This document shows, piece after piece, positions 3,567-61,249 of a DNA stretch of 64,000 nucleotides. The notes beneath the pieces were generated by a model that saw nothing but the letters and a program-made list of their open reading frames with translations, did not search any database and was not told the DNA's origin. The position numbers and the translations under genes were made by a program. The DNA lies in the sequence record KX130863; one strand, 5' to 3'. Origin of the DNA: Shigella phage SHSML-45. The first letter of the stretch is position 1; each line of letters starts with the position of its first letter.

Positions 3567-4106
3567 TTACGCGTGGGCGTGTATGTGCAAATCCGACCCA
3601 TTTTTGGTAGTGTGCAAATCCGACCCTAAAATTTCATCCCTCCATTTTACTAGAAATTCTAGATCATATGAACACTTAGACTGAGTACCATTACTAGTAG
3701 GAACATAAGCCCGGTAATAATCACCCTTTGAGGTAGTTCTAGCAACACGAATATATTTTGGAAGATTGGTTGTTTTACTGTTGGTATTTTTGCGATTTCT
3801 AGCATTTTTATAGTCTGGTATTTGTCTTAGATTCTCAGGAGAATTATTAGTGGGATCCTGATCTATATGATCTACCTGCAACTCGGGATCAATACTGCCG
3901 TTATGCAGGCAGAAAACAATCCGAGAAACTGCTAGGGTTCCCACCCCAGATACAAAGACCACATAAGACTTCCTACCTTTTCCGTCGTCCCTTAAAGTGC
4001 CTGTATGTTTTCTTTTAGGTAATCTACTCAGCCCACTGGGACTTGATGGGTCAATAAAAAATAAGTCTTTCATTTGTGCATATTCGATAGGTATATATCT
4101 TGACAT
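3567..4106 (-). CDS. HNH homing endonuclease (start moved to internal ATG with AGGAGG RBS)
   Basis: HNH-like motif DHIDQDPTNNSPENLR; nested in the repeat region. Confidence 0.75.
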   Translation of the reverse strand: MSRYIPIEYAQMKDLFFIDPSSPSGLSRLPKRKHTGTLRDDGKGRKSYVVFVSGVGTLAVSRIVFCLHNGSIDPELQVDHIDQDPTNNSPENLRQIPDYKNARNRKNTNSKTTNLPKYIRVARTTSKGDYYRAYVPTSNGTQSKCSYDLEFLVKWRDEILGSDLHTTKNGSDLHIHAHA

Positions 4107-13682: not shown

Positions 13683-14222
13683 TTACTTGTTAAGCTCTTC
13701 TAAATCTGGTATATATCCAAGAAACTCCTCAATTAAAGCGTACTCCCCAGCAATCTCCTGTCTAGACTTATTTGCTAAGTCTACTGCCAGAGCTAAGTCT
13801 TCATAATTGAAAGTTCCTTTCATACGTTTTCGGCCTGTTTCATCCGTAATTTGAACTCTCCATTTCTGCCTATCTTTAGCCCACATAACATTTGCATATC
13901 CAGATTTGGACTTTCTATGCTTCTTATTACGACAATTTTGTGGTTTAGATGCAGAACGTAAGTTTTTCCATCGGTTATTTTGTGGATTTCTATCTATGTG
14001 ATCCACAAATTCAGGTATATATCCTTCCATATATAGGAAGGCCCATCTATGGGCTCCCTGCCTCTCCCCTTCCACCATTATCATTATGTAATCATTGTTG
14101 TATAGAGTTCCAGCTTCCATTCCCCTCTTTACATACTGATTATTACCATCTATCTTCCAGGTAAATATCCCGGTTTCTGGGTTATATTCTAGTAATTCTT
14201 TTAGTCTTTCTTGAGTAATCAC
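13683..14222 (-). CDS. HNH homing endonuclease
   Basis: N-terminus MITQERLKELLEYNPETG and HNH motif DHIDRNPQNNRWKNLR shared with paralogs. Confidence 0.8.
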   Translation of the reverse strand: MITQERLKELLEYNPETGIFTWKIDGNNQYVKRGMEAGTLYNNDYIMIMVEGERQGAHRWAFLYMEGYIPEFVDHIDRNPQNNRWKNLRSASKPQNCRNKKHRKSKSGYANVMWAKDRQKWRVQITDETGRKRMKGTFNYEDLALAVDLANKSRQEIAGEYALIEEFLGYIPDLEELNK

Positions 14223-26612: not shown

Positions 26613-26618
26613 TATTAG

Positions 26619-27440: not shown

Positions 27441-27446
27441 CTATGT

Positions 27447-27535: not shown

Positions 27536-27557
27536 CGAATTTATAAGATATATTATA

Positions 27558-28337: not shown

Positions 28338-28361
28338 TACTTCGAATATTACGTGTGGGAA

Positions 28362-29309: not shown

Positions 29310-29320
29310 ATATTTCCTTA

Positions 29321-29521: not shown

Positions 29522-29547
29522 TTTATTTTCCTAGCAGTTAATAAAAT

Positions 29548-29622
29548 TGGCCGAGGTGACAGGATTCGAACCTGCATAAAGGAATTTAGAAGACTCCTGC
29601 CTCTCCCTTAGACTACACCCCG
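29548..29622 (-). tRNA. tRNA-Arg (anticodon TCT), CCA encoded
   Basis: Acceptor CGGGGTG/CACCTCG, anticodon arm GGAGT-CTTCTAA-ATTCC, T-arm GCAGG-TTCGAAT-CCTGT. Confidence 0.7.
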
Positions 29623-30123: not shown

Positions 30124-30195
30124 TACCGACCGTAGGATTCGAACCTACATCTTCCACCAGTTACGGCTTGATAATACCGTTTATACTAGATCGGC
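30124..30195 (-). tRNA. tRNA-like element (anticodon arm unresolved, CCA not encoded)
   Basis: Canonical T-arm GTAGG-TTCGAAT-CCTAC and acceptor GCCGATC/GGTCGGT with two G-U pairs; no standard anticodon stem found. Confidence 0.35.
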
Positions 30196-30308
30196 AGTGT
30201 TACTACATAAGTGATTTCCACACCCCACTATTTATAAATTAGAGAAGAATTACTCTCTAATTTATGAATATATTATACAGAATTTATAAGCATTTAGCAA
30301 ATGAATTT

Positions 30309-31443: not shown

Positions 31444-32265
31444 TTAAAATAGATCATATTCTAATCTATTGGGATTTTCTCGGTATCCATAAGACGTAAG
31501 AGTACCCCTCATATACTCTGCGTCAACAGGATTAGATGTTACTAGAACCACTTTTAGTGGTCTTTGACCTAAAAATAGTATATGATCTAATAAGTCTTTT
31601 CCTTGTACCTCTGGATCTCCTAAATCTGAGTCCATAAATAAATAGGATCCTGTGAAACTAAATATATCTGATAGCTCCAGCGCACCTATAACTGTACGAC
31701 AAATAATGGACATTTCAGGTAGATCTCTAACATCGTCTATTAGAATATTGGTCTGCTTCCCAATTTCTGCATTACATAAACCATTTACTAGTTTTTCTCT
31801 TTCCCCTTTAGCTTGTTCGAAAGTGGTGAAGCCAGGAGATACGAAAAACTTTCCACCTAATGTAATGCTATACACAAAACCCTCGGGGAGGAGTTCTACA
31901 CCTACGGTTTTATTAGTATTAATCCTATTTAACTTAAAATTTGTCTCTCTTAGATTAATAATTCTGTTATCCCACGGTATAGTATTTATATGGTCGATCA
32001 TATCAGGCGGCTCTTCACCATAATGGAGCAACCACGCTATTCGGTGTCCATAAATAATTGTGGGTTTATTATCTAAGAGCAAACTAACTCTGATGTACCC
32101 ATCAGAGTTCTTACTACATATTTCTCTCCCAGCATATAGGGTGTGCCAAGTTTTATTCTTGTATTTATTAGGCCTATAAAATAATTTACCGGTATAAGGA
32201 TTATACTCTATAATTTCTCGAATATAATCTATATATGGTAGTATTTGTTTTTGTAATTTACCCAT
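31444..32265 (-). CDS. HNH homing endonuclease (273 aa)
   Basis: HRIAWLLHYGEEPPDMIDHINTIPWDNRIINLRE motif in N-terminal half. Confidence 0.7.
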   Translation of the reverse strand: MGKLQKQILPYIDYIREIIEYNPYTGKLFYRPNKYKNKTWHTLYAGREICSKNSDGYIRVSLLLDNKPTIIYGHRIAWLLHYGEEPPDMIDHINTIPWDNRIINLRETNFKLNRINTNKTVGVELLPEGFVYSITLGGKFFVSPGFTTFEQAKGEREKLVNGLCNAEIGKQTNILIDDVRDLPEMSIICRTVIGALELSDIFSFTGSYLFMDSDLGDPEVQGKDLLDHILFLGQRPLKVVLVTSNPVDAEYMRGTLTSYGYRENPNRLEYDLF

Positions 32266-35614: not shown

Positions 35615-36103
35615 TCACATCTCGGCAAGTTCTTGCTCAGTAATAACAGTATTACATAATGCGTCAACTTCTTCATTACCTCTAATACCTGAGTGCCCTT
35701 TAACCTTAATAAAGGTAGGGTTAGTATTATGAAAATTAATATACTGTTGGGTTAGTTTAAATGCTTCTTGCCATAGTTCTAAATTGAGAGGAGCTTCACC
35801 ATCTCCCTTCTTCCAGCCTTTCTTCTGCCAAGACCACATCCAGCTTTCCATACCATTTTTACAGTATGCAGAGTCAGTGTAGATTATAACTGGACGTTTA
35901 TCATTCTTAGTAGCCCAGCGCAGAACTTCAACAATAGCTGTGAGTTCCATTTCATTGTTTGTGGTTTTTGGACTGAAACCCGACTTAGAACCCAAACGTT
36001 CGTCATTAGGATCATAAACTACGAAACCCCAAGCACCTAAACCAGGATTACCCTTACAAGCGCCATCTGTATAAACATGGAAAACTGACATTATTTGCTC
36101 CAA
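35615..36103 (-). CDS. ribonuclease H
   Basis: VYTDGACKGNPGLGAWG N-terminal motif typical of RNase HI. Confidence 0.75.
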   Translation of the reverse strand: MEQIMSVFHVYTDGACKGNPGLGAWGFVVYDPNDERLGSKSGFSPKTTNNEMELTAIVEVLRWATKNDKRPVIIYTDSAYCKNGMESWMWSWQKKGWKKGDGEAPLNLELWQEAFKLTQQYINFHNTNPTFIKVKGHSGIRGNEEVDALCNTVITEQELAEM

Positions 36104-36224
36104 TTAATAGTTACCCAATAGCTTTCACGTTGATTATGATCAAGTAAAATATATTATATTTGAGATTATACCTAATAAGCAAGTACAATTTCAAATATAA
36201 TAGCCCCCGAAAGGGCTATTTGAG

Positions 36225-37064
36225 TTAAGAAGACATCTTAGCTTTAAGAGCTGGGTGAGGATCGTACCCCTCTAAATGGAATGACCAAGCTGCCGTATTA
36301 TTATCCAGTAAATCGTAGAGATCTACAAATTCTGGCATTACTAGAGTTGGCAAAGGACGTGGTTTGCGTTTCATTTGCTCCTCTACTTGCTCTATATGAT
36401 CATTATAGATATGAGTATCACCGCCACTAAAGATAAGATAACGAGGTTTTAATCCTGTCAGTTTTGCTAATATGTGCGTTAATAAAGCATAACTAGCAAT
36501 ATTGAAAGGTAGGCCTAGAAAACAGTCTACAGAACGTTGTGTCCATTTAAGATCTAAGTATCCATCATTACTTACGTAACACTGAAAACCATAATGACAT
36601 GGTGGTAGTGCCATCTTATCCAGTTCAGCAACGTTCCATGCGGATACTAGGTGTCTACGACCATGTGGATTATTCTTGAGTCCCTCAATGAGTTCTAAAA
36701 TCTGATCTCGTCCGCCAAAGTTGCGCCATTGTTTACCATATACTGGTCCTAGATTACCATTGTCATAACCCATGCTTATAGCTTGGTCTTCATAATTTGG
36801 GGTCCAGATAGTCCACTGTCCTTCGTCACGCCCAAATGTGAATACACGCAGATCATGGAGATTTGTAGACCCAGATAGGAACCATAAGAGTTCTCCAACT
36901 ACCGATTTCCAAGCTAGACGTTTAGTGGTTACGGCAGGGAATCCCTCACGTAGATCGAACTTAGCATAGGAATCAAAAATTGAAACTGTGCCTGTTCCTG
37001 TACGGTCATTACGGGGTTCACCTAGTAAAATTACATCTGTCAAAATTTTTAAGTATTGTTGCAT
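36225..37064 (-). CDS. thyA: thymidylate synthase
   Basis: NDRTGTGT and LPPCH active-site motifs; 279 aa. Confidence 0.85.
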   Translation of the reverse strand: MQQYLKILTDVILLGEPRNDRTGTGTVSIFDSYAKFDLREGFPAVTTKRLAWKSVVGELLWFLSGSTNLHDLRVFTFGRDEGQWTIWTPNYEDQAISMGYDNGNLGPVYGKQWRNFGGRDQILELIEGLKNNPHGRRHLVSAWNVAELDKMALPPCHYGFQCYVSNDGYLDLKWTQRSVDCFLGLPFNIASYALLTHILAKLTGLKPRYLIFSGGDTHIYNDHIEQVEEQMKRKPRPLPTLVMPEFVDLYDLLDNNTAAWSFHLEGYDPHPALKAKMSS

Positions 37065-37597
37065 TAATAAGTAACCAATTCCTGTACAAATCGCAGGCTG
37101 TTATCACTGTTTGCGCCAACTGCATAGACTAATCGAGTGGATTCATAGTTATAATCCAGTATCATACTATCTAGGTGTGTATCTGCCTCTAGCTTCTGCT
37201 CGCTAAAAATTGTAGATACAAAAGCACTTTCAATATGTCCATGTTGGTACATTTCTAGAAGAAGATTAGCTCCACCTAGAACTAATGTTTGCTGATCTTT
37301 TAGGAAAGTAGGTAATGTATCACCTATCATTGATATGGGAGTGTAAATATCGTGTGTAATATCATCTGGCAGTGGACGATCAGCACGAATAAATAGGTCA
37401 GAAGCTCCAATCATACGTTCTCTAACGGCGTATGGAAGAGCTAAATAAGTACCAGCACCAATGATGATGTTATCTGGATTCAACACGTCCAGTTGAGAAT
37501 AGAAAGCATCTAGTTCTTCTTTGAAGGAACCCCAGGGAAGTTTACCTCGGAGGCCGAACTCCCCATTCGGCCCAACTGCATACATTGCTGTAATCAT
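37064..37597 (-). CDS. dihydrofolate reductase
   Basis: DHFR-like N-terminus and size; overlaps thyA start and nrdB stop. Confidence 0.7.
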   Translation of the reverse strand: MITAMYAVGPNGEFGLRGKLPWGSFKEELDAFYSQLDVLNPDNIIIGAGTYLALPYAVRERMIGASDLFIRADRPLPDDITHDIYTPISMIGDTLPTFLKDQQTLVLGGANLLLEMYQHGHIESAFVSTIFSEQKLEADTHLDSMILDYNYESTRLVYAVGANSDNSLRFVQELVTY

Positions 37598-38739
37598 AAG
37601 AAATCTCCAAATTCATTACCCAGATCTTTCAGAGTATCAGTAGAGGTTTCGGTGACTTGACCTACACGATATGCTGCACCAATCTGGATTTCTTGTGGAG
37701 CAGGCTGTAAAGAAGTGGTATCCAGCCAGTTCATGATCCACGGAATGGGGTTCTTGGTGATTACTGGTAAATGACTAGGCCATTCTACACCGATGTGCAT
37801 AAATGCATTACGCCCCACAAAGTACAGATATTCTTCTAGAAGTTCTGCGTTCAAGCCAATCAGACTACGACCTTTGAAAATGAAATGACCCCATTCAATT
37901 TCAGTTTTCAGAGTTTTCAGGAGCTGTGCTGGTGCTTTAGCCACTGCTTCATCCACCAGATCTTTGTCAAACTGCTGGAACATAATCTGGATGATTGCTT
38001 TAGACATCTGAGTGTGCAGAGCTTCATCTTTAGCGATTAATTGCAGATTTTTAGCAATACCTTGCAGAATATCGTTCTCTGCTAACGCAAAGGTACATGC
38101 AAAGGATGCATAGAACTGCATTGCTTCCAGACCGTAGATTGCAAAATAAGCGTCTAATAACTTAGCCTGGGTTTCACGTTTAACTTCAGGAAACTCTGTT
38201 TCTGGGTAAGTATTATCACCACGATGATCGCGTACTGCGATGAAATACTGACCTAACTGGTATAGTTCATCGAACAGTTCAACAGAATCAGCGATACGTG
38301 CAAATGCTTCTTGGTTTTTAGTTACAGAATCAATAAATTCTGCTGGATCAGTCAGCACATTACGAATAATATTACTATATGCACGGCTATGCAGATCTTC
38401 GAAGTAGCTCCACTGCTTGAGCATACCTTCCAATTCTGGACGACTTACAAGTGGCATAATAGCTGCTTCAGGCGCTCGACTGATAAAGGAATCAGTTTGA
38501 GTCTGCCATGCTAAATTCAGAAGTGTAATTTCCTGAATTTCACGTGGGAGATTAGGCCATTGTTTCTTATCTGCTTCCAGACTGATTTCAGTTTCAGTCC
38601 AAAATTGAGAGCGAGCTAATAACGCCAGCCTTTCTAGCTCTGGATGGGCTACCCTTACATAGTCTGCAATACCAAGTGAATCACCCAGGAAAAGATCTGG
38701 ATTAGTATGATCCCATTTTAAATTAAGTAAAGTTGTCAT
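37594..38739 (-). CDS. nrdB: ribonucleotide reductase class Ia small subunit
   Basis: 381 aa, adjacent to nrdA, Glu/His-containing helices typical of R2. Confidence 0.75.
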   Translation of the reverse strand: MTTLLNLKWDHTNPDLFLGDSLGIADYVRVAHPELERLALLARSQFWTETEISLEADKKQWPNLPREIQEITLLNLAWQTQTDSFISRAPEAAIMPLVSRPELEGMLKQWSYFEDLHSRAYSNIIRNVLTDPAEFIDSVTKNQEAFARIADSVELFDELYQLGQYFIAVRDHRGDNTYPETEFPEVKRETQAKLLDAYFAIYGLEAMQFYASFACTFALAENDILQGIAKNLQLIAKDEALHTQMSKAIIQIMFQQFDKDLVDEAVAKAPAQLLKTLKTEIEWGHFIFKGRSLIGLNAELLEEYLYFVGRNAFMHIGVEWPSHLPVITKNPIPWIMNWLDTTSLQPAPQEIQIGAAYRVGQVTETSTDTLKDLGNEFGDFL

Positions 38740-39263
38740 TAGTTCTCCTGTTTATCTGTGTTTCTAAGTAGTGTTGGGTCTTTGGTTATAGAGAGAATTA
38801 AAGAATCTCGATACTCTATCGCCTCTTCTAGAGTTGGGAGAGTTTTCACATATTCTTTTCCGTTAATGTATTTTCTAACTTGAAATCCAGACCCTTTCTT
38901 CCGAATATTCTTAGTACCCAATATATTGTTTTTACTGGTTTTTCTATTTTGACTATTTAACTGCCAGTCTGCTTCTCTTAGATTAGTCCACTTATAGTTT
39001 AGTGAATCTCCATCTATATGGTCAACCATAATTTTAGGTAAGTTTCCTGTCATGTACAGGAAAGCAATATTTTGTGCGGGATACTTCTTACCCTTGATTT
39101 GTATTACTAAGTCTTTTCGGTTAGGATCTACTGAGTGTGGTTTTAAACAGCCAGCAGGTAGTCCTCTTACTTTATTATGTACTTCCTGGTTATTTAACCA
39201 AGTAAATGTTCCTTCATCTGGATTATACTCCAGAATCCTTTTTAATTCATCTTGTGTTATCAA
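38739..39263 (-). CDS. HNH homing endonuclease between nrdA and nrdB
   Basis: Conserved MITQ..LEYNP N-terminus; IAFLYMTGNLPKIMVDHIDGDSLN motif. Confidence 0.8.
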   Translation of the reverse strand: MITQDELKRILEYNPDEGTFTWLNNQEVHNKVRGLPAGCLKPHSVDPNRKDLVIQIKGKKYPAQNIAFLYMTGNLPKIMVDHIDGDSLNYKWTNLREADWQLNSQNRKTSKNNILGTKNIRKKGSGFQVRKYINGKEYVKTLPTLEEAIEYRDSLILSITKDPTLLRNTDKQEN

Positions 39264-39328
39264 AATTAATCTCCTTAACTAATGGAGATATTATAGCAAA
39301 TCAGGTAGCGATTAGCAAGTAAAATTTC

Positions 39329-39366
39329 AAAGAAAAAAGGAGACCCGAAGATCTCCTTGTTTTTAT
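39329..39366. terminator. bidirectional terminator hairpin
   Basis: AGGAGA-loop-TCTCCT stem flanked by A6 and T5 runs. Confidence 0.55.
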
Positions 39367-42300
39367 TATAACTGACAGCCTCCTGATGCACAGCCTACTG
39401 CTTCTTCACCAGCTCCACCACCATTTTCAGTATTAAAATTAGCATAATACCAAGTTTTTATACCATACTTAACAGCGATCATGAAGTCACGAACTACTAC
39501 TGGGCCTGGAATGATTTCATTCTCGAATTTAGAGTAGTCATAATACGACTGGAAGCTTGAAGACTGATTCAGGAACTTCTGGTAAACAGCATTCCACTTA
39601 ATATACTCTACCCTATCAATGTCATAAGCCAGTTTATAGCTCATTAATGTATCCCAATCAGTTGCACCTGGAGCAATTGCAATTACTTTATTCACTGCAC
39701 TACCCTTGATAGATACGATCTTACGGGGCGGTTCGATAGAGTTAGTAACACCTAGCAGTACAGAGGAACTTTCACCTGGCATCTGAGCAGTCAGAACAGA
39801 GTTGCGCATACCATATTTCAGAATATCTGCACGCAGAGATTCCCAATCCATTTCTAGACCTACAGTTACCAGTTCATCAACAGTTTTCTTGTACGTGTCG
39901 ATTACCAGAGTTCCTTGCGAAGGCTTAGTACGATTAAACCAGTCACATGCACCTTGTTCTTTAGCCAGACGTACAGAGGCTTTATGTAGGAAGTAGGACA
40001 GCTTTTCAGCTTCACGGTGAATCCAGTTACGGGCTTCAACACCTTCGTAAGCCAAACCTTCTGCTGCCATTGCACCTGCTGCGTTCATCAGACCAATACC
40101 AACGTTACGACGTTTCTTAGCCGTGTACTCCATAGTTGGGAATGGGTAATCCTGAATCTCGATGATTGTATCAACGAATTTCAGAAGAATGTAGCAAGTT
40201 TTCTCCCATTCAGCCAGAGATTCCATACGACCTAGTACAACACCACCTAAGTTACACAGAGATACTTCACCAATATCTTCTGGACGCATATCGTCTAACT
40301 GATCTTGGGTCTTATACAGCTCCATAATGTGATGGAATGGACGGGTTGGCTGAGTAATTTCAACACAAAGGTTGGTCATACGAATCGGGTCAAGGAAGTT
40401 ACCATGACGGTTAGATTCACCAATGTGATGAGCATACATACGCCCTGTTTCCATACGGATACGTAACCAAGTATCTAGGATTTCTTTTGCAGAGATTCTA
40501 GGAGCTGCTGGAATTGTTTTTCCTTCGTGGTCGATCTTTGTAAGAGAAGCCACACGTTTCTCCGCTGCCACGTAGATTTCTTCAAACTTAGCCTCATCTT
40601 CGCCATAAAACGCTTCATGAACTTCTGGTGCGTAGAAGTATGACATTAGCGTAATATCTTCATTTTTCAGATAACGTTTTAACAAAAGATTGTTGAAGCT
40701 CAGAGAATAATCCATCTTATCGATTTTATTCTCGTCTGTAGCACGTTGTTGCTTAACCTGCATCAACTGGATGATTTCAGGGTCAAAGTAAGGATAGGAT
40801 ACAGTAGCAGAACCACCACGGCTATTACCACAGACTATGGTATGCCCGTTACGGCGCACTACTAACTTATTGGTGGGTACTTCCACACAATAAACTTTAC
40901 CAATATACTCAACTTCAGTTTCCTTGATACCCTCTGCTGTCATATCTAGTTGGTCAAAATAGACATAGCAACGGTCTTTAGTGCTTGTATTTGAGCGTAA
41001 TCCAGCAATTGCTGCTAGAGCCTGCACCACATGTTGTTGCCCTGCGTGGCTTGAGTATTCTCCAACATTTTCGGATTTCCAGTACCCATCCCACTCCATG
41101 ATTTCTTTCAATGCTTCTTTCGCAGCATTAGATGTTAAATCCTTCTCTAGCAGGAAAGATAAGTCTTTCGAATAGTATAGCTGCCCATGCCCAATATGAA
41201 TGGTAGTTACACCTTGTTCATTTAGCTTCTTAGAATATTTAAGACCTAAATCATCTAGGATATGTACTAAACGATCTACCTTGCGTTGCTTTTTAAATCC
41301 GAAACGATACGCTCTACCTGTATTTGTTTCTACGATTGAACCATCAGCCTGCAATGCAATACGGAAGCGGTCTAGCATGGTGATAGTATCAGTACCATTT
41401 GTTTTCTGCGCTGAACCAAAATCTAGTGCATGGGTTCTTTTTGGTTGCCAATCTTCTGCTAGGATTTTCTGATACCCAGGTTTACGTTGGATATTCTTAT
41501 TATTATACGATACTTGACGGTATACCATAGTATGGTTAGGGGTTACTAGAAGATCTACCCCTCTTTTCTCGAAACGTAACATTGTACCTTCGTAATCATA
41601 CTCGAACACATTAAGAGGTAATACCCATTCTAACCCCCTACTATCAGTAATCTGAGCGACTAACTCATCTCCAGTAAGTTCTGAGAATAACTTCCAACCA
41701 TTCTTAGTTAAGACTTCAGTATCCTCGGAGTAGCACTGTTGGGTATTTGCCTTTACTGAGCGGTCAATGTGTCGATAATATGGCAGTTTTCCGGAATGCG
41801 GGAATGCCCCATTTCGCACCGGATCAGCAATTGATCGGCTTTCAAGATGATACCCGATTCCCGCTCTGGCTGCGACCATTTTGAAGACGATGTGCTCGGC
41901 TGTGTCGATTGAATCCAACGTGTCAGTGGAATCCACGAGGCAGCAACTAGCAAATCCACGGTCACTAGAACGCAAACCAACCAGTGGCGGCGTAGGAACG
42001 TTGATTTTGTGGAGCGACATTGCATTGTAGAGATCGATTGCATCTAGAATTGTCCAGTTGGGTTGAGATAACATCGCCATTGCCATGCCCATATAGGCAA
42101 ATTGCGGGGTTTCGTAAATTTCACCAGTGGCTATATTACGACGGGAATATTTATCAAAGAACTGTTTCAGTCCACCACTAGTAAAAAGACGGTCACGATC
42201 GTGGTCTATAACCTGATTCAGAGCTTCAAATTGCTCATCGGTAATCCATGCACTCATGTCTTCCCATGCACCTACACTAACCATATGATCGTGGAAGAAG

Positions 42301-42608
42301 CGTAGAGAAGGTGGTTCGAAGGAATCATAAAGGCGTTTACGCATCTGCGCAAGACGTAATTCCTTTGCTGGCACGTCGTATGCTGGATTATCTTTAATAA
42401 GACTTTCGGCAGCTTTAATTAACGCATCCATCAGAGTATCGGAATCTACAACCCCTTTAGGCAGAGTTTTTTGAGCAGCCATAGTAATGGCTGACCAACT
42501 TACATCAACTGTTTTGCAGCCATACTCTGCCCAACCATTGAGTTTTTCAGGAGCAAAGTCTTCTACAGTACCGTCACGTTTAATTACTTTTTCAATGCGA
42601 TGGCTCAT
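39366..42608 (-). CDS. nrdA: ribonucleotide reductase class Ia large subunit, intein-containing precursor
   Basis: ATP-cone N-terminus, NLCVEI active-site motif, C-terminal Cys pair; ~300-aa insertion with intein blocks; start set to second Met (RBS AAAGGAAAA) rather than track start 42668. Confidence 0.85.
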   Translation of the reverse strand: MSHRIEKVIKRDGTVEDFAPEKLNGWAEYGCKTVDVSWSAITMAAQKTLPKGVVDSDTLMDALIKAAESLIKDNPAYDVPAKELRLAQMRKRLYDSFEPPSLRFFHDHMVSVGAWEDMSAWITDEQFEALNQVIDHDRDRLFTSGGLKQFFDKYSRRNIATGEIYETPQFAYMGMAMAMLSQPNWTILDAIDLYNAMSLHKINVPTPPLVGLRSSDRGFASCCLVDSTDTLDSIDTAEHIVFKMVAARAGIGYHLESRSIADPVRNGAFPHSGKLPYYRHIDRSVKANTQQCYSEDTEVLTKNGWKLFSELTGDELVAQITDSRGLEWVLPLNVFEYDYEGTMLRFEKRGVDLLVTPNHTMVYRQVSYNNKNIQRKPGYQKILAEDWQPKRTHALDFGSAQKTNGTDTITMLDRFRIALQADGSIVETNTGRAYRFGFKKQRKVDRLVHILDDLGLKYSKKLNEQGVTTIHIGHGQLYYSKDLSFLLEKDLTSNAAKEALKEIMEWDGYWKSENVGEYSSHAGQQHVVQALAAIAGLRSNTSTKDRCYVYFDQLDMTAEGIKETEVEYIGKVYCVEVPTNKLVVRRNGHTIVCGNSRGGSATVSYPYFDPEIIQLMQVKQQRATDENKIDKMDYSLSFNNLLLKRYLKNEDITLMSYFYAPEVHEAFYGEDEAKFEEIYVAAEKRVASLTKIDHEGKTIPAAPRISAKEILDTWLRIRMETGRMYAHHIGESNRHGNFLDPIRMTNLCVEITQPTRPFHHIMELYKTQDQLDDMRPEDIGEVSLCNLGGVVLGRMESLAEWEKTCYILLKFVDTIIEIQDYPFPTMEYTAKKRRNVGIGLMNAAGAMAAEGLAYEGVEARNWIHREAEKLSYFLHKASVRLAKEQGACDWFNRTKPSQGTLVIDTYKKTVDELVTVGLEMDWESLRADILKYGMRNSVLTAQMPGESSSVLLGVTNSIEPPRKIVSIKGSAVNKVIAIAPGATDWDTLMSYKLAYDIDRVEYIKWNAVYQKFLNQSSSFQSYYDYSKFENEIIPGPVVVRDFMIAVKYGIKTWYYANFNTENGGGAGEEAVGCASGGCQL
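40824..41735 (-). mobile_element. intein (304 aa) with LAGLIDADG-type homing endonuclease domain inside nrdA
   Basis: Starts CYSEDTEVLTKNG (block A), TPNH (block B), LAGLIDADG-like ALQADGS, ends ..GN followed by Ser; flanks rejoin to conserved R1 sequence. Confidence 0.65.
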
Positions 42609-42950
42609 TTGGTTTTCCTTTTTATAGTTATCAGGATTTAGGAAATAGTTTACTTTATTCTCAGTCATTTGGCAAATAAAATTTCTGATAGAAAAGGCCC
42701 GAGTATTTTCATACCCAGGCCTCCTGTGTTGTCAGTCTAGTTTTTGGCCACTTAAGTTCTCAGCAGAATATCTATTGAGGTACTTAGTTCATTATAATTG
42801 AAGGGCCGATTTGGATTTGAGGTTACAATTTTCCACGCTAGGGTAGTCTTAGGACTTTCTTCCCCTTCCTTACGTGTAATCATATTAGCAGCACTCAGTG
42901 AAGTACGATGTATTTTAGTTTTACGGTGTAGATGTACGACGTTTCCCATA

Positions 42951-43712
42951 TTACACCTTCCCCATGTCTTTAAAAATATCGTAGAATGCTTTAGACTCAG
43001 CAGAACGAACGTTATCAATCAATTCGATCATAGAGAAAGGAGAGTTTTCATACTTCTCATAGACTTCCATAAGAAGTGCTAGACCTGAGTCACCTTTAAT
43101 GTCTTTCTGAGCTATATCCCCGCAGATAATTAAACGGCAGTCTTGTCCTACACGAGTTAGGAGACAAACCATTGCCTCAACGGAAATATTCTGAGCTTCA
43201 TCGACAATTACATAGGAGTTGTTGAAAGTTCTGCCACGAGCATGTTCTATAGCCAAAAATTTAATTTTCTGACGTTCGACATATCCCTTATAGGCATGAT
43301 CACCGATGGCCCATTTCATACCATCAGCTATTGGCTCTAACCAAGGCTCTAGCTTTTCTGCTAGATCACCAGGAAGCATACCAAGAGACTTACCTAGAGG
43401 TTCATTAGGACGTACGAGGATCACTTGCTCAATATCTGAGTGAATGTCTACGAGTTCCTGAGCTGCAAGAACAGACGGGATAAAGGTTTTACCAGTACCC
43501 GGCTCACCGATACCCACAGTCACTGTGTTGTTCTTGATCATATTAATATATGATTTTTGCTCTCGGTTTTTACCTACTAGGGATTTAGCAACTGGGTTAG
43601 CGTAATCATTAGAAAAATCAGCCTGAATTACGTTACTCCCATATTTGTTGCCACGCTTTCTTGAACCATTGCGGTTCTCTCTTTTTTGACGTGCTTTTCC
43701 CATAAATAACAC
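42951..43712 (-). CDS. phoH: PhoH-like ATPase
   Basis: Walker A GEPGTGKT and PhoH-like organisation. Confidence 0.75.
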   Translation of the reverse strand: MLFMGKARQKRENRNGSRKRGNKYGSNVIQADFSNDYANPVAKSLVGKNREQKSYINMIKNNTVTVGIGEPGTGKTFIPSVLAAQELVDIHSDIEQVILVRPNEPLGKSLGMLPGDLAEKLEPWLEPIADGMKWAIGDHAYKGYVERQKIKFLAIEHARGRTFNNSYVIVDEAQNISVEAMVCLLTRVGQDCRLIICGDIAQKDIKGDSGLALLMEVYEKYENSPFSMIELIDNVRSAESKAFYDIFKDMGKV

Positions 43713-43789
43713 TCCTATAGTGTACTTCGCTTCTAACAGAGGATCAACAAAGAGATCTTGTTTATCAACTTACAAATATATTATAACAA

Positions 43790-43818
43790 GGTTTACAGCA
43801 AAAAGCAAGTATAATTTT
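43790..43818 (-). promoter_or_regulatory. sigma70-type early promoter for the minus-strand operon
   Basis: TTGCTT-N17-TATAAT on the minus strand in the divergent intergenic region. Confidence 0.55.
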
Positions 43819-43945
43819 AAATAAACCTATGATATTGCTTTTAAGTAAAAAATTTACTTGCTTATAAAGGTAGAAATATGATACTAGATAATCATTTATT
43901 TATATGCGAAATATTACAGTATTAGATGGCGAAAGAAAATTTTAA

Positions 43946-43974
43946 TTGACATAGTGGATAATGTTTAGTATAAT
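43946..43974 (+). promoter_or_regulatory. sigma70-type promoter (TTGACA-N17-TATAAT) for the plus-strand block
   Basis: Perfect consensus hexamers with 17-nt spacer. Confidence 0.65.
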
Positions 43975-44002
43975 AGGTGTAAAAATTCTGTGGAGAAGTG
44001 GA

Positions 44003-44866
44003 ATGCCGAAAAAATTAACTCAAGAAGAAGTAGATAAATGCCTAGCCGAGCGTGGTTTTACTATGGTGGATAAGCCATATCAAAATTCTAGGTATAGGCA
44101 TACGTATCAGTGTGAATACGGTCACCAATGGACAGCTAAATTTGACGCTATTAGGAATGGAAAGACCAATTGTCCTACTTGCTCTATTAGTAGCCGTAAA
44201 CTAGATATTGATAAAATTAATACTATATTACAGGACAGAGGTATTACATTGTTGAACGGCTATAAAAATAGTGCCGATATAAATACTAAATTTAGGTGTG
44301 TTTGTGGTCATGAGTGGGCTACTACACTTAATAGTATAATTAATAGAGGTAGTGGCTGCCCATCTTGTGCTGCTAATAAACAGAAACTTAGTGTTAATAC
44401 TATAAATGATCGTCTTGCTGCCAGAAATATCAGAATAGTGGGTGAGTATAGTAATGCGAATACTAAGACCGCCTTTCTTTGTGGTGCAGGGCATAGGTGG
44501 GAAGCTACTCCAGGGTCTGTATTAAGGGGGAACGGTTGTCCTTACTGTAGTTATAGAGATTTAGAAAGTACTAGGATATATGTTATGTATAGCCCCTCAC
44601 ATGGGGTTAAAATAGGTAGGTCTAACAATCCAGAGCGTAGACTTCTACATATTAGATCTAGTAGCCACCTTATTGATTTGGAAATAATTAAAGTATTTGA
44701 AATTGGGGAATATAGTAGTGCAGTTCGAATAGAAAAATTAGCCCATAACTACTTTAAAGAGCAGAATTGCCAGTACAAAGATTTTGACGGCGCTACGGAA
44801 TTCTTCAATATTGAACCAAAAGTAGCTATAAAGTTTATCGAGGAAATAATCAATGACAGAGAATGA
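44003..44866 (+). CDS. zinc-ribbon repeat protein with C-terminal T5orf172/GIY-YIG-like domain
   Basis: Four C-x2-C..CP-x-C repeats then IYVMYSPSHGVKIGRSNNPERR-type domain; start at Met with GGAGAAG RBS. Confidence 0.6.
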   Translation: MPKKLTQEEVDKCLAERGFTMVDKPYQNSRYRHTYQCEYGHQWTAKFDAIRNGKTNCPTCSISSRKLDIDKINTILQDRGITLLNGYKNSADINTKFRCVCGHEWATTLNSIINRGSGCPSCAANKQKLSVNTINDRLAARNIRIVGEYSNANTKTAFLCGAGHRWEATPGSVLRGNGCPYCSYRDLESTRIYVMYSPSHGVKIGRSNNPERRLLHIRSSSHLIDLEIIKVFEIGEYSSAVRIEKLAHNYFKEQNCQYKDFDGATEFFNIEPKVAIKFIEEIINDRE

Positions 44867-48603: not shown

Positions 48604-49056
48604 ATGTCATTCACACAGCAAGAACTTTTAGATAACTTCCGATATGAAGATGGTAAGTTATTTAGAACTACAGGAAGAAATGCAGGGAAAGAATGTTGTG
48701 TTTCTACGGGTAACGGATATTATCGTATATCTCTAGGGAATAGGACTATGCTTCGGCATAGAGCAATATTTTTAATGCATCATGGATACTTACCTGATTT
48801 AGTAGATCATGTGAATACTATAAAAGGTGATGATCGTATTGAAAATCTTAGAGAGCAGACAGTGTCCGGTAATCTAAGAAATATCAAATATAAGAAAGGA
48901 ATGCATGTTTACCCTTCTGGTAGTAAGAACTGGCAAGTAGTATTTACTATTAACCGTAAACGTATAGTTAAAGGAACATATGACAACTATGAGGTTGCAT
49001 GTTCTATGGCCAAGATGTTTAGAGGTCAATTATACGGTAGGGAATCAATCCAGTAA
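48604..49056 (+). CDS. HNH homing endonuclease (start at Met with GGAGGTGAGG RBS)
   Basis: HRAIFLMHHGYLPDLVDHVNTIKGDDRIENLRE motif. Confidence 0.75.
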   Translation: MSFTQQELLDNFRYEDGKLFRTTGRNAGKECCVSTGNGYYRISLGNRTMLRHRAIFLMHHGYLPDLVDHVNTIKGDDRIENLREQTVSGNLRNIKYKKGMHVYPSGSKNWQVVFTINRKRIVKGTYDNYEVACSMAKMFRGQLYGRESIQ

Positions 49057-57791: not shown

Positions 57792-58373
57792 ATGGGGGAG
57801 ATTACCCAGCAGTATCTTAAAACATTATTAAGATATGAGCCTGATACTGGAAATTTTTACTGGCTACCTAGAGAAAATAATCCTGCGTTCAATGCTAAGC
57901 ACGCTAACAAACCTGCAGGCTATATGCATTCATCAGGCTATATTTATATAAAGATAACCTTAGAGTCAGGTATACAAAAATCTATGGGAGCACATAGGTG
58001 GGCCTTTCTATATATGGAAGGAGAAATCCCTGACAAGGTTGATCATAAAAATAGAATTAAAACTGATAATACTTGGAATAACTTACGTGAAGTTACTTCC
58101 TCTCAAAATTCCGCTAATAGCTTTATAGGTAACAAGCTAGGCATTCGTAACATAGAAGTAACAAAAAATAACACATTTAAAGTAACCATATCTAAAAACT
58201 CCAAAGTATTTAGAAAAACCCTAAAAACTCTAGGAGAAGCTCTGTGGTATAGAGATAAGCTGCTTTTAGCCTTGTACGGAGATTTCGCAGCCCTAGATGC
58301 TCTAGATATAGAGAGGGTTAAACCGCAGAATATAGTGGATAACTTTACAGAGGAGTTGCTAGATAATGTTTAA
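57792..58373 (+). CDS. HNH homing endonuclease
   Basis: AHRWAFLYMEGEIPDKVDHKNRIKTDNTWNNLRE motif. Confidence 0.8.
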   Translation: MGEITQQYLKTLLRYEPDTGNFYWLPRENNPAFNAKHANKPAGYMHSSGYIYIKITLESGIQKSMGAHRWAFLYMEGEIPDKVDHKNRIKTDNTWNNLREVTSSQNSANSFIGNKLGIRNIEVTKNNTFKVTISKNSKVFRKTLKTLGEALWYRDKLLLALYGDFAALDALDIERVKPQNIVDNFTEELLDNV

Positions 58374-59832
58374 CGTGCAAGCTGTAGTGTTGAAGATGCT
58401 TCTAGCTTCCGAACAGAAGCAAATAGCATTGGAAACATTCTCAAAACTGCATAAAGATCATTTTAATGACGCTTTCTCCTCAATTTACCAAGCCGTCCAG
58501 AATTATTATAAAAAATATAACACAATGCCGTCCATTGACGCACTGATGCTTGAGGCTAATAGGAACGCCCGCCTTTCTCAAGCTCTAGTCGTCTTAGCTA
58601 ACACTCAAATTCCAGAAGTGAGCATGGAACAGGCACTTGAAGTCCTAGAAGCCGAATATACACAGGATTTATTCCTGAAGCTTCTAGAAACAGACGTGCT
58701 TCAAGATTTAACAATGCTGGATCAGGGAGAAATTCTCAACCGAGTTGCCTCCCTTCACTTAAAATTAGAAGAGAAAGTAACGAATACTGGAAAAGTATTC
58801 AACGCAGACACAATGCGTATTTTCCAGAGAGAAGAAGATACCAAACTGAACTTGATCGCTCTTGGTATTTGTAATGAGTTCGACGCTCAAATTGGTTTAG
58901 CTCGCACAGAAACGTTACTGCTTGGTGGTTGGCGTGGTACTGGTAAATCCATTATCTGTTCAAACATACAGGTTCAGCAATATTTGAATGGAGATATTGC
59001 TCCATACTTCTCAATTGAGATGAAAGAACATGAAGTATTTAGACGTAATCTAGCCATGTTAGCTGGTGTATCAGCACTAGCAATGCGTAATAATACTCTA
59101 GAAGGTGCAGCTCTGTTGAGATTAGCCAGAACTAGAGCTAGGATGTTTAATGGTGGTGAAGAGCTTTTCGATAACTTCGTTAAACAGTACACAATGGCTA
59201 AGATGAGTGATTTCTACGATATGGAAAGTAAGCTAATAGAAGGGTATGAACTACATACTCCTATGATTATTGTTTATGATCCTGAGCTGTCTATTACAAC
59301 AGTTGACGTAGAATTAAATAAATTAGTTGCTAGATATGGGGATAAAGTTACAGTAGCTTTACTGGACTATATTAACCAAACCCGACTTCCAGACTCTAAA
59401 ACCATTGATATGTATGACTGGAAAGAACAGATGGTTGTTAGCTCGTCTTTCAAATCTATCTGCCAGAAACATAACGTGGCTGGTGTAGCTCCTTACCAGA
59501 TTGATCAAGATGGTAGAACACGTATGTCAAAAGGGATTCTTGATTCCGCAGACATGGCTGCTAATCTTAATGCTGCAAAAGCTGATAATGGTCAAGGTGC
59601 TATTATGTTTGACTTCGTTAAGACCCGTTCTTCTGATAGCGTGAAGTTTATGCCTAAAATGAACTGGGAAACCCTGCGGATGGATAACACTACCAACCTA
59701 GCAATGGAAGATATATCTCAAATGGAAGCTGAGTTCGTTATCCCTATTGAGAAGGATAAGCCAGCTCAATCTAAACGTGCTAAGAAAGACAAAGCTGAAA
59801 ATTCAACAGGTGAACAGGCCAGCGATATATGA
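58366..59832 (+). CDS. DnaB-like replicative DNA helicase
   Basis: Walker A GGWRGTGKS and RecA-like core; 488 aa. Confidence 0.65.
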   Translation: MFNVQAVVLKMLLASEQKQIALETFSKLHKDHFNDAFSSIYQAVQNYYKKYNTMPSIDALMLEANRNARLSQALVVLANTQIPEVSMEQALEVLEAEYTQDLFLKLLETDVLQDLTMLDQGEILNRVASLHLKLEEKVTNTGKVFNADTMRIFQREEDTKLNLIALGICNEFDAQIGLARTETLLLGGWRGTGKSIICSNIQVQQYLNGDIAPYFSIEMKEHEVFRRNLAMLAGVSALAMRNNTLEGAALLRLARTRARMFNGGEELFDNFVKQYTMAKMSDFYDMESKLIEGYELHTPMIIVYDPELSITTVDVELNKLVARYGDKVTVALLDYINQTRLPDSKTIDMYDWKEQMVVSSSFKSICQKHNVAGVAPYQIDQDGRTRMSKGILDSADMAANLNAAKADNGQGAIMFDFVKTRSSDSVKFMPKMNWETLRMDNTTNLAMEDISQMEAEFVIPIEKDKPAQSKRAKKDKAENSTGEQASDI

Positions 59833-60362
59833 TAACACAGGAACGACTAAAAGAACTGTTTGACTACTCCCCAGAGACTGGGGAGTTTATTAGAAAAGTA
59901 TCTAGAGGCAACCAGAAAGCCGGGAGTATAGTAACTAGAAAGGATTCAAACGGTTATATAATTATCGGTATAGATGGTAGGGATTATAAAGCCCATCGTA
60001 TGGCCTTCCTATTTATGGAAAACACGTTACCTGAAAAAGTAGACCATATAAACCGTATACGAAGTGATAATCGATGGTGTAATCTAAGAGACGCCACAGC
60101 CCAGGAAAATAGTAGAAATAAAACCGCATGTAGTAAGTCTGGATATTTGGGAGTTGCTTGGGATATAGAAAAACAAAGATGGAGAGTTCAAGTAAGAGAC
60201 TCTAATAGCACTCTTAAAAATGGTGGCAGATTTAAGTATGAAGAGCTAGAGCTAGCTGTAAATTCAGCAAATATATTAAGGACTAAGTTACATGGAGAAC
60301 GTGCTGTTATAGAATTTTTTGATACATCTAATTATCCTTCACTGGAGGAGTTAAATTCATGA
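59829..60362 (+). CDS. HNH homing endonuclease between helicase and primase
   Basis: MITQERLKELFDYSPETGEF N-terminus and AHRMAFLFMENTLPEKVDHINRIRSDNRWCNLRD motif. Confidence 0.8.
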   Translation: MITQERLKELFDYSPETGEFIRKVSRGNQKAGSIVTRKDSNGYIIIGIDGRDYKAHRMAFLFMENTLPEKVDHINRIRSDNRWCNLRDATAQENSRNKTACSKSGYLGVAWDIEKQRWRVQVRDSNSTLKNGGRFKYEELELAVNSANILRTKLHGERAVIEFFDTSNYPSLEELNS

Positions 60363-61249
60363 GTAGAATAACAGAGTTACTTGATCTAAAAGGAATTGAG
60401 TACAAGGATACAGGCGGGGATATTCTTATATGCTGCCTGAATCCTGAACACGAGGATAAACACCCAAGTTTGCGTATTGATCCTGAAACCGGGATTATGC
60501 ACTGCTTGAGTTGCGGTTTTGGCAAAGGTATACCTAGTATTTATCATTATTTTAATGAGACTCAATATAGACAATCTCCAAGACTATCCCAAGTACGTAA
60601 AAAAATTTCTGAGATTAGAAATGGATCTACGAATCTTGCAATCCCAGAATCTGCTTTTCTTTTTGAAGGTGATTTCCGAGGTATCAGTTCTAAGACCTTA
60701 AAGAAATATTTTGCTTTCCAACACCAAGAGGACTGGGAAGGCAGAATTGTATTCCCAATCACAGATGCTGTTGGACGCAATATCCTATTTTTGGGTCGTT
60801 CTATAAACAGTTCTGCCCCTCCTAAATACTTAGTAAAACCAAAACAAGTTTCACCACCAATTTTTCCTGTACGATATAATACTCCAGTTCTTATTCTAGT
60901 TGAAGGCATCTTTGATATGCTGAACCTAGAGGATAATGGTATAGACTATGCTTCTTGCTGCTTTGGTACACATCAGTTTACTTCGGATAACATTGCTGAT
61001 AAGTTCAGTCCTTACATTATTGCTGGAGTAAGAGTAGTTGTTATCTTGCTAGATAATGATGCCTCTGGTAATAAAGCTGCTCAAGCACTAGCGAAGCTAA
61101 TTCGTACAAAAACACGTTTAACACCTGTAGTTGGTAACTTCCTTCTTCCAGAAGGTAAAGACCCAGGTGATTTAAATAAAGAAGAGATCGATATGTTGGC
61201 TCAACGTATTGAAATTTTAGTTGCCGAATCGCTCAAAGATTTGGTATAA
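60359..61249 (+). CDS. DnaG-like DNA primase
   Basis: Zinc-binding CC..H..H-x19-C-x2-C near N-terminus; Toprim-like EGIFD and DNDASG motifs. Confidence 0.75.
   Translation: MSRITELLDLKGIEYKDTGGDILICCLNPEHEDKHPSLRIDPETGIMHCLSCGFGKGIPSIYHYFNETQYRQSPRLSQVRKKISEIRNGSTNLAIPESAFLFEGDFRGISSKTLKKYFAFQHQEDWEGRIVFPITDAVGRNILFLGRSINSSAPPKYLVKPKQVSPPIFPVRYNTPVLILVEGIFDMLNLEDNGIDYASCCFGTHQFTSDNIADKFSPYIIAGVRVVVILLDNDASGNKAAQALAKLIRTKTRLTPVVGNFLLPEGKDPGDLNKEEIDMLAQRIEILVAESLKDLV

What the first reader, a model, noticed from the sequence alone, without database searches (positions are those of the whole stretch)
38739..39263. Nine HNH endonuclease paralogs wedged into essential operons
HNH genes sharing a MITQ(D/E)(E/R)LKE(L/I)L(E/D)YNPE N-terminus and/or the (A/V)HR.AFLY..G..P..VDH(I/K)..(D/N)..N..NLR core occur at 3567-4106, 13683-14222, 19903-20418, 31444-32265, 38739-39263, 48604-49056, 57792-58373 and 59829-60362; the ninth (31444-32265) is longer. 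Several sit between conserved neighbours with 1-4 nt start/stop overlaps (nrdA/nrdB; helicase/primase), the signature of free-standing homing endonucleases.
Basis: partly seen in the sequence, partly recalled or inferred. Interest (0 to 1): 0.45.

Follow-up and report, generated by a model that had tools for sequence, protein, structure and literature searches.

The report
Homing endonuclease genes in T5-like phage
The window is a T5-like Salmonella/E. coli phage genome carrying eight (not nine) selfish HNH "homing endonuclease" genes slotted between essential genes, a real but already published feature of this phage group.

Summary
Exactly eight ORFs at the listed coordinates match Pfam HNH_3 and PHROG 99, and a profile built from them finds no ninth copy in any frame. 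The window is a Tequintavirus, 98.6% identical to Salmonella phage Shivani, whose record already annotates all eight as HNH (homing) endonucleases.

Of 438-529 related phage records that match the flanks of each site, only 6-73 carry the same HNH. Most have an empty site, with clean 519-554 nt indels at four sites.

At the focal nrdA/nrdB spacer the gene is the T5 hegH orthologue (98% aa). At least three other HNH lineages occupy the same spacer in other phages.

Columns that separate carrier from non-carrier alleles cluster just downstream of the insertion, in the nrdB 5' end and in primase codons 17-23. This is the expected co-conversion or target-immunity tract.

The published Shivani genome note already reports 18 HNH genes versus 8 in T5, so the finding is ordinary and known.

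The one unreported detail is that the long copy (31444-32265) is an in-frame, selectively maintained fusion of an HNH to the resident cREC receiver-domain gene.

The parts
3567..4106 (-). HNH s1: I-HmuI-like HNH_3 gene near the inner end of the long terminal repeat, inserted in an array of GTGCAAATCCGAC repeats
   Evidence: HNH_3 E 1.4e-12. Shivani gp017 is annotated 'HNH endonuclease'. Of 529 related records, 20 carry it. The repeat array is shown.
13683..14222 (-). HNH s2 (GTG start), between a hypothetical gene and the thioredoxin gene
   Evidence: HNH_3 E 1e-13. Of 438 related records, 11 carry it. There is a clean 554-nt indel against phage VEc33.
19903..20418 (-). HNH s3, upstream of the lysis/spanin cluster, with a sub-threshold AP2-like C-terminal region
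   Evidence: HNH_3 E 9.6e-15; AP2 scores 20 bits, below its 33.3-bit cutoff. Of 444 related records, 6 carry it, and identity changes abruptly at the gene. There is a clean 524-nt indel.
31444..32265 (-). HNH s4: in-frame fusion of an HNH module (aa 1-172) to the resident cREC_REC gene (aa 173-273), using that gene's promoter, RBS and start position
   Evidence: HNH_3 E 6e-11 plus cREC_REC E 1.8e-12. The standalone 105-aa cREC gene is present in HMD-P2 and BF23. The upstream region is identical. Of 440 related records, 25 carry the fusion. A 76%-identical fusion in contig L029 has pN 0.12-0.14 against pS 0.70-0.75.
38739..39263 (-). HNH s5 (focal; TTG start): orthologue of T5 hegH / P-TflVIII. 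It sits between the -10 box of the nrdB promoter and the nrdB RBS.
   Evidence: 98.3% aa identity to T5 hegH, at the same position in T5 and Shivani. Of 441 related records, 73 carry it. A 519-nt indel against chee24 places the gene downstream of TATAAT.
38614..38760 (-). HEG-linked tract covering the nrdB RBS and the first ~42 codons. Inferred to be the co-conversion or target-immunity region of s5.
   Evidence: 28 of the 31 columns diagnostic for 4 carrier versus 4 non-carrier alleles fall in this tract. There are none in the remaining ~575 nt of nrdB examined. Between-group identity is 0.77-0.83 against 0.94-0.97 within groups.
48604..49056 (+). HNH s6, in the spacer upstream of the replication-origin-binding helicase gene
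   Evidence: HNH_3 E 2.3e-11. Of 523 related records, 38 carry it. The site is empty in T5 and DT571/2.
57792..58373 (+). HNH s7, between the D5 gene and the replicative helicase (D6) gene
   Evidence: HNH_3 E 5.5e-14. Of 514 related records, 10 carry it. The site is empty in T5 and EPS7.
59829..60362 (+). HNH s8: orthologue of T5 hegJ / P-TflX, between helicase and primase with ATGA overlaps on both sides
   Evidence: 96% aa identity to T5 hegJ. Of 443 related records, 70 carry it. An exact 530-nt indel regenerates the ATGA helicase-stop/primase-start overlap.
60405..60430 (+). Cluster of synonymous carrier-specific substitutions in primase codons ~17-23. Inferred to be the recognition or immunity site of s8.
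   Evidence: The only 4 diagnostic columns in ~1,600 aligned positions are 60409, 60421, 60424 and 60427. Non-carriers are 97.8% identical to each other here, while carriers are 84% identical to non-carriers.

Best explanation
The eight ORFs are free-standing homing endonuclease genes (HEGs) of the I-HmuI-like HNH_3 class. They are resident in a Tequintavirus (T5-like) phage genome.

Each is a minimal selfish cassette: essentially one ORF, with no promoter of its own where this could be checked. It is inserted into a short spacer or start/stop overlap between conserved early or replication genes. It is therefore transcribed, and often translationally coupled, with its neighbours and does not disrupt them.

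Inferred mechanism, by analogy with characterised relatives:
1. During co-infection with a related phage that lacks the gene, the enzyme nicks or cuts a specific sequence in the conserved gene next to the empty site.
2. The break is repaired by recombination using the HEG-bearing genome as template.
3. Repair copies in the HEG plus a short flanking tract (co-conversion).
4. The carrier's own copy of the target is protected by substitutions in that tract, which are mostly synonymous.

Shown here: domain identity, intact catalytic motif, insertion geometry, presence/absence polymorphism, alternative occupants of one site, and HEG-linked flanking tracts.

Inferred only: cleavage activity, nick versus double-strand cut, and the exact target sequences.
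For: Family:
- All eight pass HNH_3 and phrog_99.
- The eight-sequence profile hits only I-HmuI (1U3E) in the PDB (E 2.4e-9), aligning the DH, NLR and downstream Asn positions.
- D81, H82, N94-L95-R96, N103 and N106 are invariant in all eight.

Identity of the genome:
- The window is 98.6% identical to Shivani and about 92% to T5.
- Shivani annotates all eight as HNH (homing) endonucleases.
- s5 is 98% identical to T5 hegH and s8 is 96% identical to T5 hegJ.

Polymorphism:
- Only 6-73 of 438-529 related records carry each gene.
- Clean indels of 554, 524, 519 and 530 nt separate carriers from empty alleles.
- Reciprocally, T5's hegI site is empty in the window.

Site re-use:
- SH9, bombadil and fuchur carry three other HNH lineages (31-42% aa identity to s5) at different points of the same ~100-nt nrdA-nrdB spacer.

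Co-conversion or immunity tracts:
- For s5 they lie in the nrdB 5' end and for s8 in primase codons 17-23.
- Carrier and non-carrier sets each mix Tequintavirus and Epseptimavirus, so genus-level relatedness does not explain the pattern.

Parallel case:
- T4 MobE is a free-standing HNH between nrdA and nrdB. It nicks the 5' region of T2 nrdB and drives gene conversion there (PMC2790892).

Literature:
- Shivani has 18 HNH genes versus 8 in T5 (PMC4342426).
- HEGs are the main source of differences among T5-like genomes (PMC10644984).
- nrdA-nrdB has been noted as an HEG hotspot (PMC3326045).
Against: No biochemical or genetic activity data exist for any of these eight alleles; T5 hegH and hegJ are themselves only 'putative' (P-Tfl) in the T5 record.

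Presence/absence counts come from megablast coverage. They include duplicate GenBank/RefSeq records and contig fragments, so the fractions are approximate.

Insertion boundaries at s1, s6 and s7 are not clean; some spacer sequence is replaced as well.

The flanking-tract analysis used only 4 carrier and 4 non-carrier alleles, at two sites.

The HNH-cREC fusion (s4) is under purifying selection across both halves. That is also compatible with a domesticated, non-selfish role for that copy.
Confidence: 0.9

Rival explanations
1. The HNH genes are domesticated phage functions rather than selfish elements. Possible roles include weapons against co-infecting competitor phages, or the nickases that produce the characteristic single-strand nicks of T5-type virion DNA.
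For: The closest solved relative, I-HmuI, is an HNH homing endonuclease; from my own knowledge it is a nickase, which was not checked here. T5-like virion DNA carries site-specific nicks (PMC10644984). DT57C annotates the s5 orthologue as 'HNH nicking homing endonuclease F-TflVIII'. The s4 fusion shows strong purifying selection (pN 0.12-0.14 against pS 0.70-0.75).
Against: Every copy is absent from most otherwise syntenic, viable relatives, so none is a core function. All T5-like phages are reported to have nicks, yet no single HNH is shared by all. A competitive 'marker exclusion' effect is a consequence of homing, not an alternative to it.
Confidence: 0.07
2. The copies are inactive relics: formerly mobile HEGs now fixed and decaying in this lineage, carried passively.
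For: Three points fit the later stages of the invasion-fixation-decay cycle. s5 has AQN where the others have AHR-like residues, and NY where most have NN. Several copies use weak start codons: TTG for s5 and GTG for s2. h1's C-terminus runs into a repeat array.
Against: All eight retain full-length ORFs and the invariant D-H...N-L-R...N...N catalytic positions. s5 and s8 are 96-98% identical in protein to T5 orthologues across phages whose flanks are about 92% identical in DNA. Sharp HEG-linked tracts argue for recent gene conversion.
Confidence: 0.03

Closest known systems
T5 hegH (P-TflVIII) and hegJ (P-TflX), putative H-N-H endonucleases of phage T5 (NC_005859)
   Same: s5 and s8 are their positional orthologues. 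They are 98.3% and 96.0% identical in protein, have the same length, occupy the same nrdA/nrdB and helicase/primase positions, and have the same overlaps.
   Different: There is no functional difference. The other six sites of the window are empty in T5 where checked (s6, s7). T5 has hegI at a site that is empty here.
Salmonella phage Shivani (KP143763 / NC_028754) HNH complement
   Same: All eight genes are at the same coordinates at 98.6-100% DNA identity, and are already annotated as HNH (homing) endonucleases. The publication states 18 HNH genes versus 8 in T5 and describes the NrdA intein.
   Different: The record calls the s4 fusion only 'hypothetical protein, HNH nuclease domain'. It does not note the fusion to the cREC gene.
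F-TflI, F-TflII, F-TflIV (Akulenko et al. 2004), the experimentally shown site-specific HNH endonucleases of the T5 tRNA-gene region
   Same: They are in the same phage group and the same H-N-H class, and are free-standing (cited in PMC3326045 and PMC2330249).
   Different: Those genes lie among the tRNA genes. The tRNA region of this window (23.8-30.2 kb) contains no member of the family. Sequence relatedness to them was not measured here.
T4 MobE, a free-standing HNH homing endonuclease between nrdA and nrdB
   Same: It has the same genomic niche (the nrdA-nrdB spacer). It depends on upstream transcription, nicks the 5' region of nrdB in the HEG-less phage, and has its recombination point in the nrdB 5' end (PMC2790892). 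The carrier-linked tract of s5 maps to the same part of nrdB.
   Different: It is in a different phage family (Straboviridae). Homology between MobE and s5 was not tested, and the shared niche may be convergent.
I-HmuI (PDB 1U3E), HNH homing endonuclease; from my own knowledge it is the intron-encoded nickase of Bacillus phage SPO1 (source, intron and nicking not checked here)
   Same: It is the only solved structure matched by the eight-protein profile. The match aligns the beta-beta-alpha-metal core and the DH / NLR / N positions.
   Different: From my own knowledge (not checked here), I-HmuI is encoded inside a group I intron, whereas these genes are free-standing. Similarity is weak beyond the HNH core (E 2.4e-9, about 120 aligned residues).

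Membership tests
HNH_3 / I-HmuI-like His-Me finger endonucleases | Sequence match to the family profile above the curated threshold | tested here: met
   All eight score 31.7-54.4 bits against the PF13392 cutoff of 24.8. All hit phrog_99 at E<=4.5e-26.
HNH_3 / I-HmuI-like His-Me finger endonucleases | Intact catalytic motif (Asp-His general base, structural Asn of NLR, downstream metal-ligand Asn) | tested here: met
   D81, H82, N94, L95, R96, N103 and N106 (s5 numbering) are invariant in all eight. These positions align to VDHKD...NLR...N of 1U3E. Assignment of roles to the residues rests on my knowledge of the I-HmuI structure.
HNH_3 / I-HmuI-like His-Me finger endonucleases | C-terminal sequence-specific DNA-binding module | tested here: inconclusive
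   Only s3 gives an AP2 hit, and it is below threshold (20 bits against a 33.3 cutoff). The C-terminal ~70 aa are alignable among copies. No structure was predicted.
HNH_3 / I-HmuI-like His-Me finger endonucleases | Site-specific nicking or cleavage activity | not testable with these tools
   This requires enzyme assays.
Free-standing homing endonuclease genes (phage 'intronless homing') | Located between genes, not inside an intron or intein | tested here: met
   Each ORF lies in a spacer or start/stop overlap between annotated genes. The exception is s4, which is fused in frame to the downstream gene.
Free-standing homing endonuclease genes (phage 'intronless homing') | Presence/absence polymorphism with precise empty sites in otherwise syntenic relatives | tested here: met
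   The gene is present in 6-73 of 438-529 related records per site. Exact indels occur at s2, s3, s5 and s8.
Free-standing homing endonuclease genes (phage 'intronless homing') | HEG-linked flanking sequence tract (co-conversion or target immunity) next to the insertion | tested here: met
   For s5, 28 of 31 diagnostic columns lie in 38614-38760. For s8, all 4 diagnostic columns lie in 60409-60427. Only two sites were tested, with 4 versus 4 alleles each.
Free-standing homing endonuclease genes (phage 'intronless homing') | Endonuclease-dependent super-Mendelian inheritance in mixed infection | not testable with these tools
   This requires phage crosses.

The most novel reading that the evidence does not exclude
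The long copy (31444-32265) may not be just a homing endonuclease that lost its stop codon. It may be a stably maintained chimeric protein.

An HNH module has taken over the promoter, RBS and start codon of the resident cREC (cyclic-phosphate-processing receiver) gene, so that cREC is made only as the C-terminal part of a nuclease. The fusion persists at 76% aa identity in a diverged T5-like contig, with saturated synonymous and low non-synonymous change in both halves.

Two readings follow. One is a new way for a free-standing HEG to make itself indispensable, because deleting it removes the host gene's expression signals. The other is a nuclease whose activity is coupled to a cyclic-nucleotide or RNA-end-sensing domain.
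Probability: 0.25. Interest if true: 0.45.

Novelty: already known. Interest (0 to 1): 0.15.

Why it matters
The finding has little significance as a discovery. Multiple HNH homing endonuclease genes in T5-like phages, the nrdA-nrdB hotspot and the large number in phage Shivani are all published, and the genes are annotated in GenBank.

Practically, these elements explain most of the indel differences and local mosaicism among Tequintavirus and Epseptimavirus genomes. They should be masked in phylogenies.

The in-silico target predictions (the nrdB 5' end for hegH-type genes, primase codons 17-23 for hegJ-type genes) give directly testable substrates for enzymes that are still only 'putative'. 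The HNH-cREC fusion is a small unreported curiosity.

Tried and rejected
1. Ninth family member. An HMM of the eight copies was searched against all six-frame ORFs of 40 aa or more and found none. The other nuclease-like ORFs, 18118-18816 and 43961-44866, are T5orf172/MUG113 plus zinc-finger proteins, not HNH.

2. Recent intragenomic duplication. This is rejected: pairwise identity among copies is 27-49%, against 96-98% to the positional orthologues in T5.

3. Endonuclease domain in the NrdA intein. Only sub-threshold Hint (E 0.07) and LAGLIDADG_3 (E 0.17) hits were found, so this is left as a note.

4. Internal restart for the cREC half of the s4 fusion. There is no ATG/GTG/TTG with a convincing RBS at the junction.

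5. Wider distribution of the HNH+cREC architecture. The large protein search returned only two clusters, both in T5-like context, so nothing was found beyond this phage group.

6. Failed calls. One paper search failed on a too-short term. One translation request was out of frame.

7. Structure prediction. It was not run because the sequence evidence was already decisive.

Full report
**What the window is**

Megablast of 36000-44000 finds 453 phage records, nearly all T5-like Salmonella/Escherichia phages. The best are vB_SLGBLB0002 (99.2%), Salmonella phage Shivani (98.6%, Tequintavirus shivani, Demerecviridae) and T5 itself (about 93% over 87%). The window is collinear with Shivani 6.6-70.6 kb. 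G+C is 38.7%.

**Checking the observation**

The eight coordinate pairs are genuine ORFs with the motifs quoted.
- All eight exceed the Pfam HNH_3 gathering score, and all hit PHROG 99 'HNH endonuclease'.
- A profile built from the eight, searched against every six-frame ORF of 40 aa or more, recovers those eight and nothing else. The count is eight, not nine.
- The eight share invariant D-H, N-L-R and two downstream Asn positions.
- As a profile they match only one solved structure, the HNH homing endonuclease I-HmuI (1U3E), across the catalytic core.

**Testing the interpretation by synteny**

For each gene I searched the gene plus 700 nt of each flank against 50,697 phage records. A record with the same gene covers about 100% of the query. 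An empty site covers about 70% with a correspondingly shorter span. A different occupant covers about 70% with a full-length span.

| Site | Window coordinates | Records matching flanks | Records with the same HNH |
|---|---|---|---|
| s1 | 3567-4106 | 529 | 20 |
| s2 | 13683-14222 | 438 | 11 |
| s3 | 19903-20418 | 444 | 6 |
| s4 | 31444-32265 | 440 | 25 |
| s5 | 38739-39263 | 441 | 73 |
| s6 | 48604-49056 | 523 | 38 |
| s7 | 57792-58373 | 514 | 10 |
| s8 | 59829-60362 | 443 | 70 |

These counts include duplicate GenBank/RefSeq entries and contig fragments, so they are approximate.

Reciprocally, T5's hegI, downstream of the origin-binding helicase gene, is absent from the window, where 52468 abuts 52482.

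**Anatomy of the insertions**

Pairwise alignment with an empty allele gives clean indels of 554 nt (s2), 524 nt (s3), 519 nt (s5) and 530 nt (s8).

At s8 the empty allele has the helicase stop overlapping the primase start (ATGA). The occupied allele has ATGA at both ends of the HNH ORF. The insert is therefore exactly one ORF, and translational coupling is preserved.

At the focal s5 site the empty allele reads: nrdA stop, terminator hairpin, TTGCTA-N17-TATAAT promoter, RBS, nrdB. The HNH ORF sits between the -10 box and the nrdB RBS, bringing its own AAGGAG RBS and a TTG start, and it ends in TAATG on the nrdB start.

In other T5-like phages the same ~100-nt spacer holds three other HNH lineages: SH9, bombadil and fuchur (31-42% aa identity to s5). 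They are inserted at different points; bombadil's is upstream of the promoter. In the 60-row sample, about 10 records had the hegH-type gene, about 34 were empty and about 14 had another occupant.

**Relationships of the copies**

The eight are 27-49% identical to one another. In contrast, s5 is 98.3% identical to T5 hegH (P-TflVIII) and s8 is 96.0% identical to T5 hegJ (P-TflX). They are old, separate lineages that each track a site, not recent duplicates. Fuchur's nrdA/nrdB occupant is closer to s7 (49%) than to s5 (42%), which hints at occasional site switching.

**Signature of homing in the flanks**

For s8 I aligned four carriers (window, VEc33, JN-S202001, mar003J3) and four non-carriers (DT571/2, OSYSP, 100268_sal2, falkor). 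Each set mixes Tequintavirus and Epseptimavirus.
- Only four of about 1,600 columns separate the two sets, and all four lie at 60409-60427.
- They are synonymous third-position changes in primase codons ~17-23, 47-69 nt downstream of the insertion.
- Non-carriers are 97.8% identical to each other in that 100-nt bin, whereas carriers are 84% identical to non-carriers.

For s5 I compared window, T5, bobsandoy and NR01 against chee24, EC142, Stitch and S131.
- 28 of 31 diagnostic columns fall in 38614-38760, which covers the nrdB RBS and the first ~42 codons.
- Three more abut the insertion on the nrdA side.
- None occurs in the remaining ~575 nt of nrdB or in ~780 nt of nrdA.

This one-sided, HEG-linked tract is what co-conversion and target-site immunity predict. 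It places the likely targets in the nrdB 5' end and the primase 5' end; that placement is an inference. It mirrors the experimentally characterised T4 MobE, a free-standing HNH between nrdA and nrdB that nicks the 5' region of T2 nrdB and whose recombination point maps there (PMC2790892).

At s3 one flank is about 99% identical to many Epseptimavirus genomes while the other is not found by megablast. The gene thus sits at a recombination boundary. This is the pattern indicated by the title of Barth et al., 'Nuclease genes occupy boundaries of genetic exchange between bacteriophages' (PMC10055350, listed; the paper itself was not read).

**What is already known**

- The AKFV33 paper discusses the HNH gene between nrdA and nrdB as a counterpart of T5 P-TflVIII, and calls nrdA-nrdB an HEG hotspot (PMC3326045).
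- The BF23 paper says HEGs such as the F-Tfl enzymes contribute most of the differences among T5-like genomes (PMC10644984).
- The BASEL study avoids 'regions infested with homing endonucleases' in phylogenies (PMC8594841).
- F-TflI, II and IV of the T5 tRNA region are cited as novel site-specific endonucleases of T5 (Akulenko et al. 2004, seen only as a citation).

The finding is therefore correct but not new.

**The one unreported detail**

The 273-aa ORF at 31444-32265 is an in-frame fusion. Residues 1-172 are the HNH module. Residues 173-273 are the cREC_REC domain, which in most T5-like phages is a standalone 105-aa gene at this position (HMD-P2, BF23; about 50% aa identity).
- The promoter, RBS and start position are those of the standalone gene. 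The HNH coding sequence is inserted right at the start codon and reads through into codon ~5 of cREC, with no convincing internal restart.
- The cREC part is 44-60% identical in DNA to the standalone allele, while the flanks are 85-99% identical.
- The large protein database holds only two clusters with this architecture, both in T5-like context.
- The 76%-identical one shows pN 0.12-0.14 against pS 0.70-0.75 in both halves, so the whole fusion is under purifying selection.
- cRec domains are predicted cyclic-phosphate-processing enzymes of NAD+/RNA-repair conflict systems (PMC7824862).

Whether the fusion has a function beyond homing is open.

**Verdict**

Novelty is 'already known', and interest is low (0.15).

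Noticed in passing
window 31444-32265 (- strand); L029 1158-1979: The HNH is fused in frame to the resident cREC_REC gene and uses that gene's promoter, RBS and start. The fusion is conserved at 76% aa identity in another T5-like contig, with pN 0.12-0.14 against pS 0.70-0.75 in both halves. The Shivani annotation does not mention it.
   Followed up: yes
window 18118-18816 (-) and 43961-44866 (+): Two paralogous ORFs combine CapR, a treble-clef zinc finger and a T5orf172/MUG113 (GIY-YIG-like) nuclease domain. One sits between the two spanin genes. The other sits directly upstream of nrdD, a position that is empty in T5. They are probably a second family of free-standing homing endonucleases.
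   Followed up: partly
window 39366-42668 (-), roughly aa 300-600 of NrdA: NrdA is 1100 aa against 811 aa in T5 because of an intein of about 290 aa, published for Shivani as Cys292-Asn595. Only sub-threshold Hint and LAGLIDADG_3 matches were found, so it is unclear whether it still encodes an endonuclease.
   Followed up: partly
window 3539-4789 (and 6454): The 13-nt direct repeat GTGCAAATCCGAC occurs 7 times within 1.25 kb, against 0.62 expected in the whole window. The array surrounds HNH s1. Two copies lie inside the 3' end of that ORF and encode its repeated GSDLH tail. The repeats are also present in the HEG-less phage Seafire, and their function is unknown.
   Followed up: partly
window 19203-21118: Sequence relatedness changes abruptly at HNH s3. 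The 20420-21118 flank is about 99% identical to many Epseptimavirus genomes, while the 19203-19902 flank is not detected by megablast in the same records. This marks a recombination boundary at the endonuclease gene.
   Followed up: partly
window 52468-52482: This is the position where T5 carries hegI (519 nt, after the replication-origin-binding helicase gene). It is an empty site in this phage.
   Followed up: yes
window 55019-55990 and 56190-56972: The NAD-dependent DNA ligase is encoded as two separate ORFs (adenylation+OB, and HhH+BRCT) separated by about 200 nt. T5 has the same arrangement (ligA/ligB), with promoters annotated in the gap.
   Followed up: no
window 23871-30196: ARAGORN places all 10 tRNA genes on the - strand, co-oriented with the surrounding genes. 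The Shivani RefSeq record lists its tRNAs on the + strand, which is probably an annotation error in that record. One predicted tRNA-Ser has the unusual anticodon ACT.
   Followed up: no
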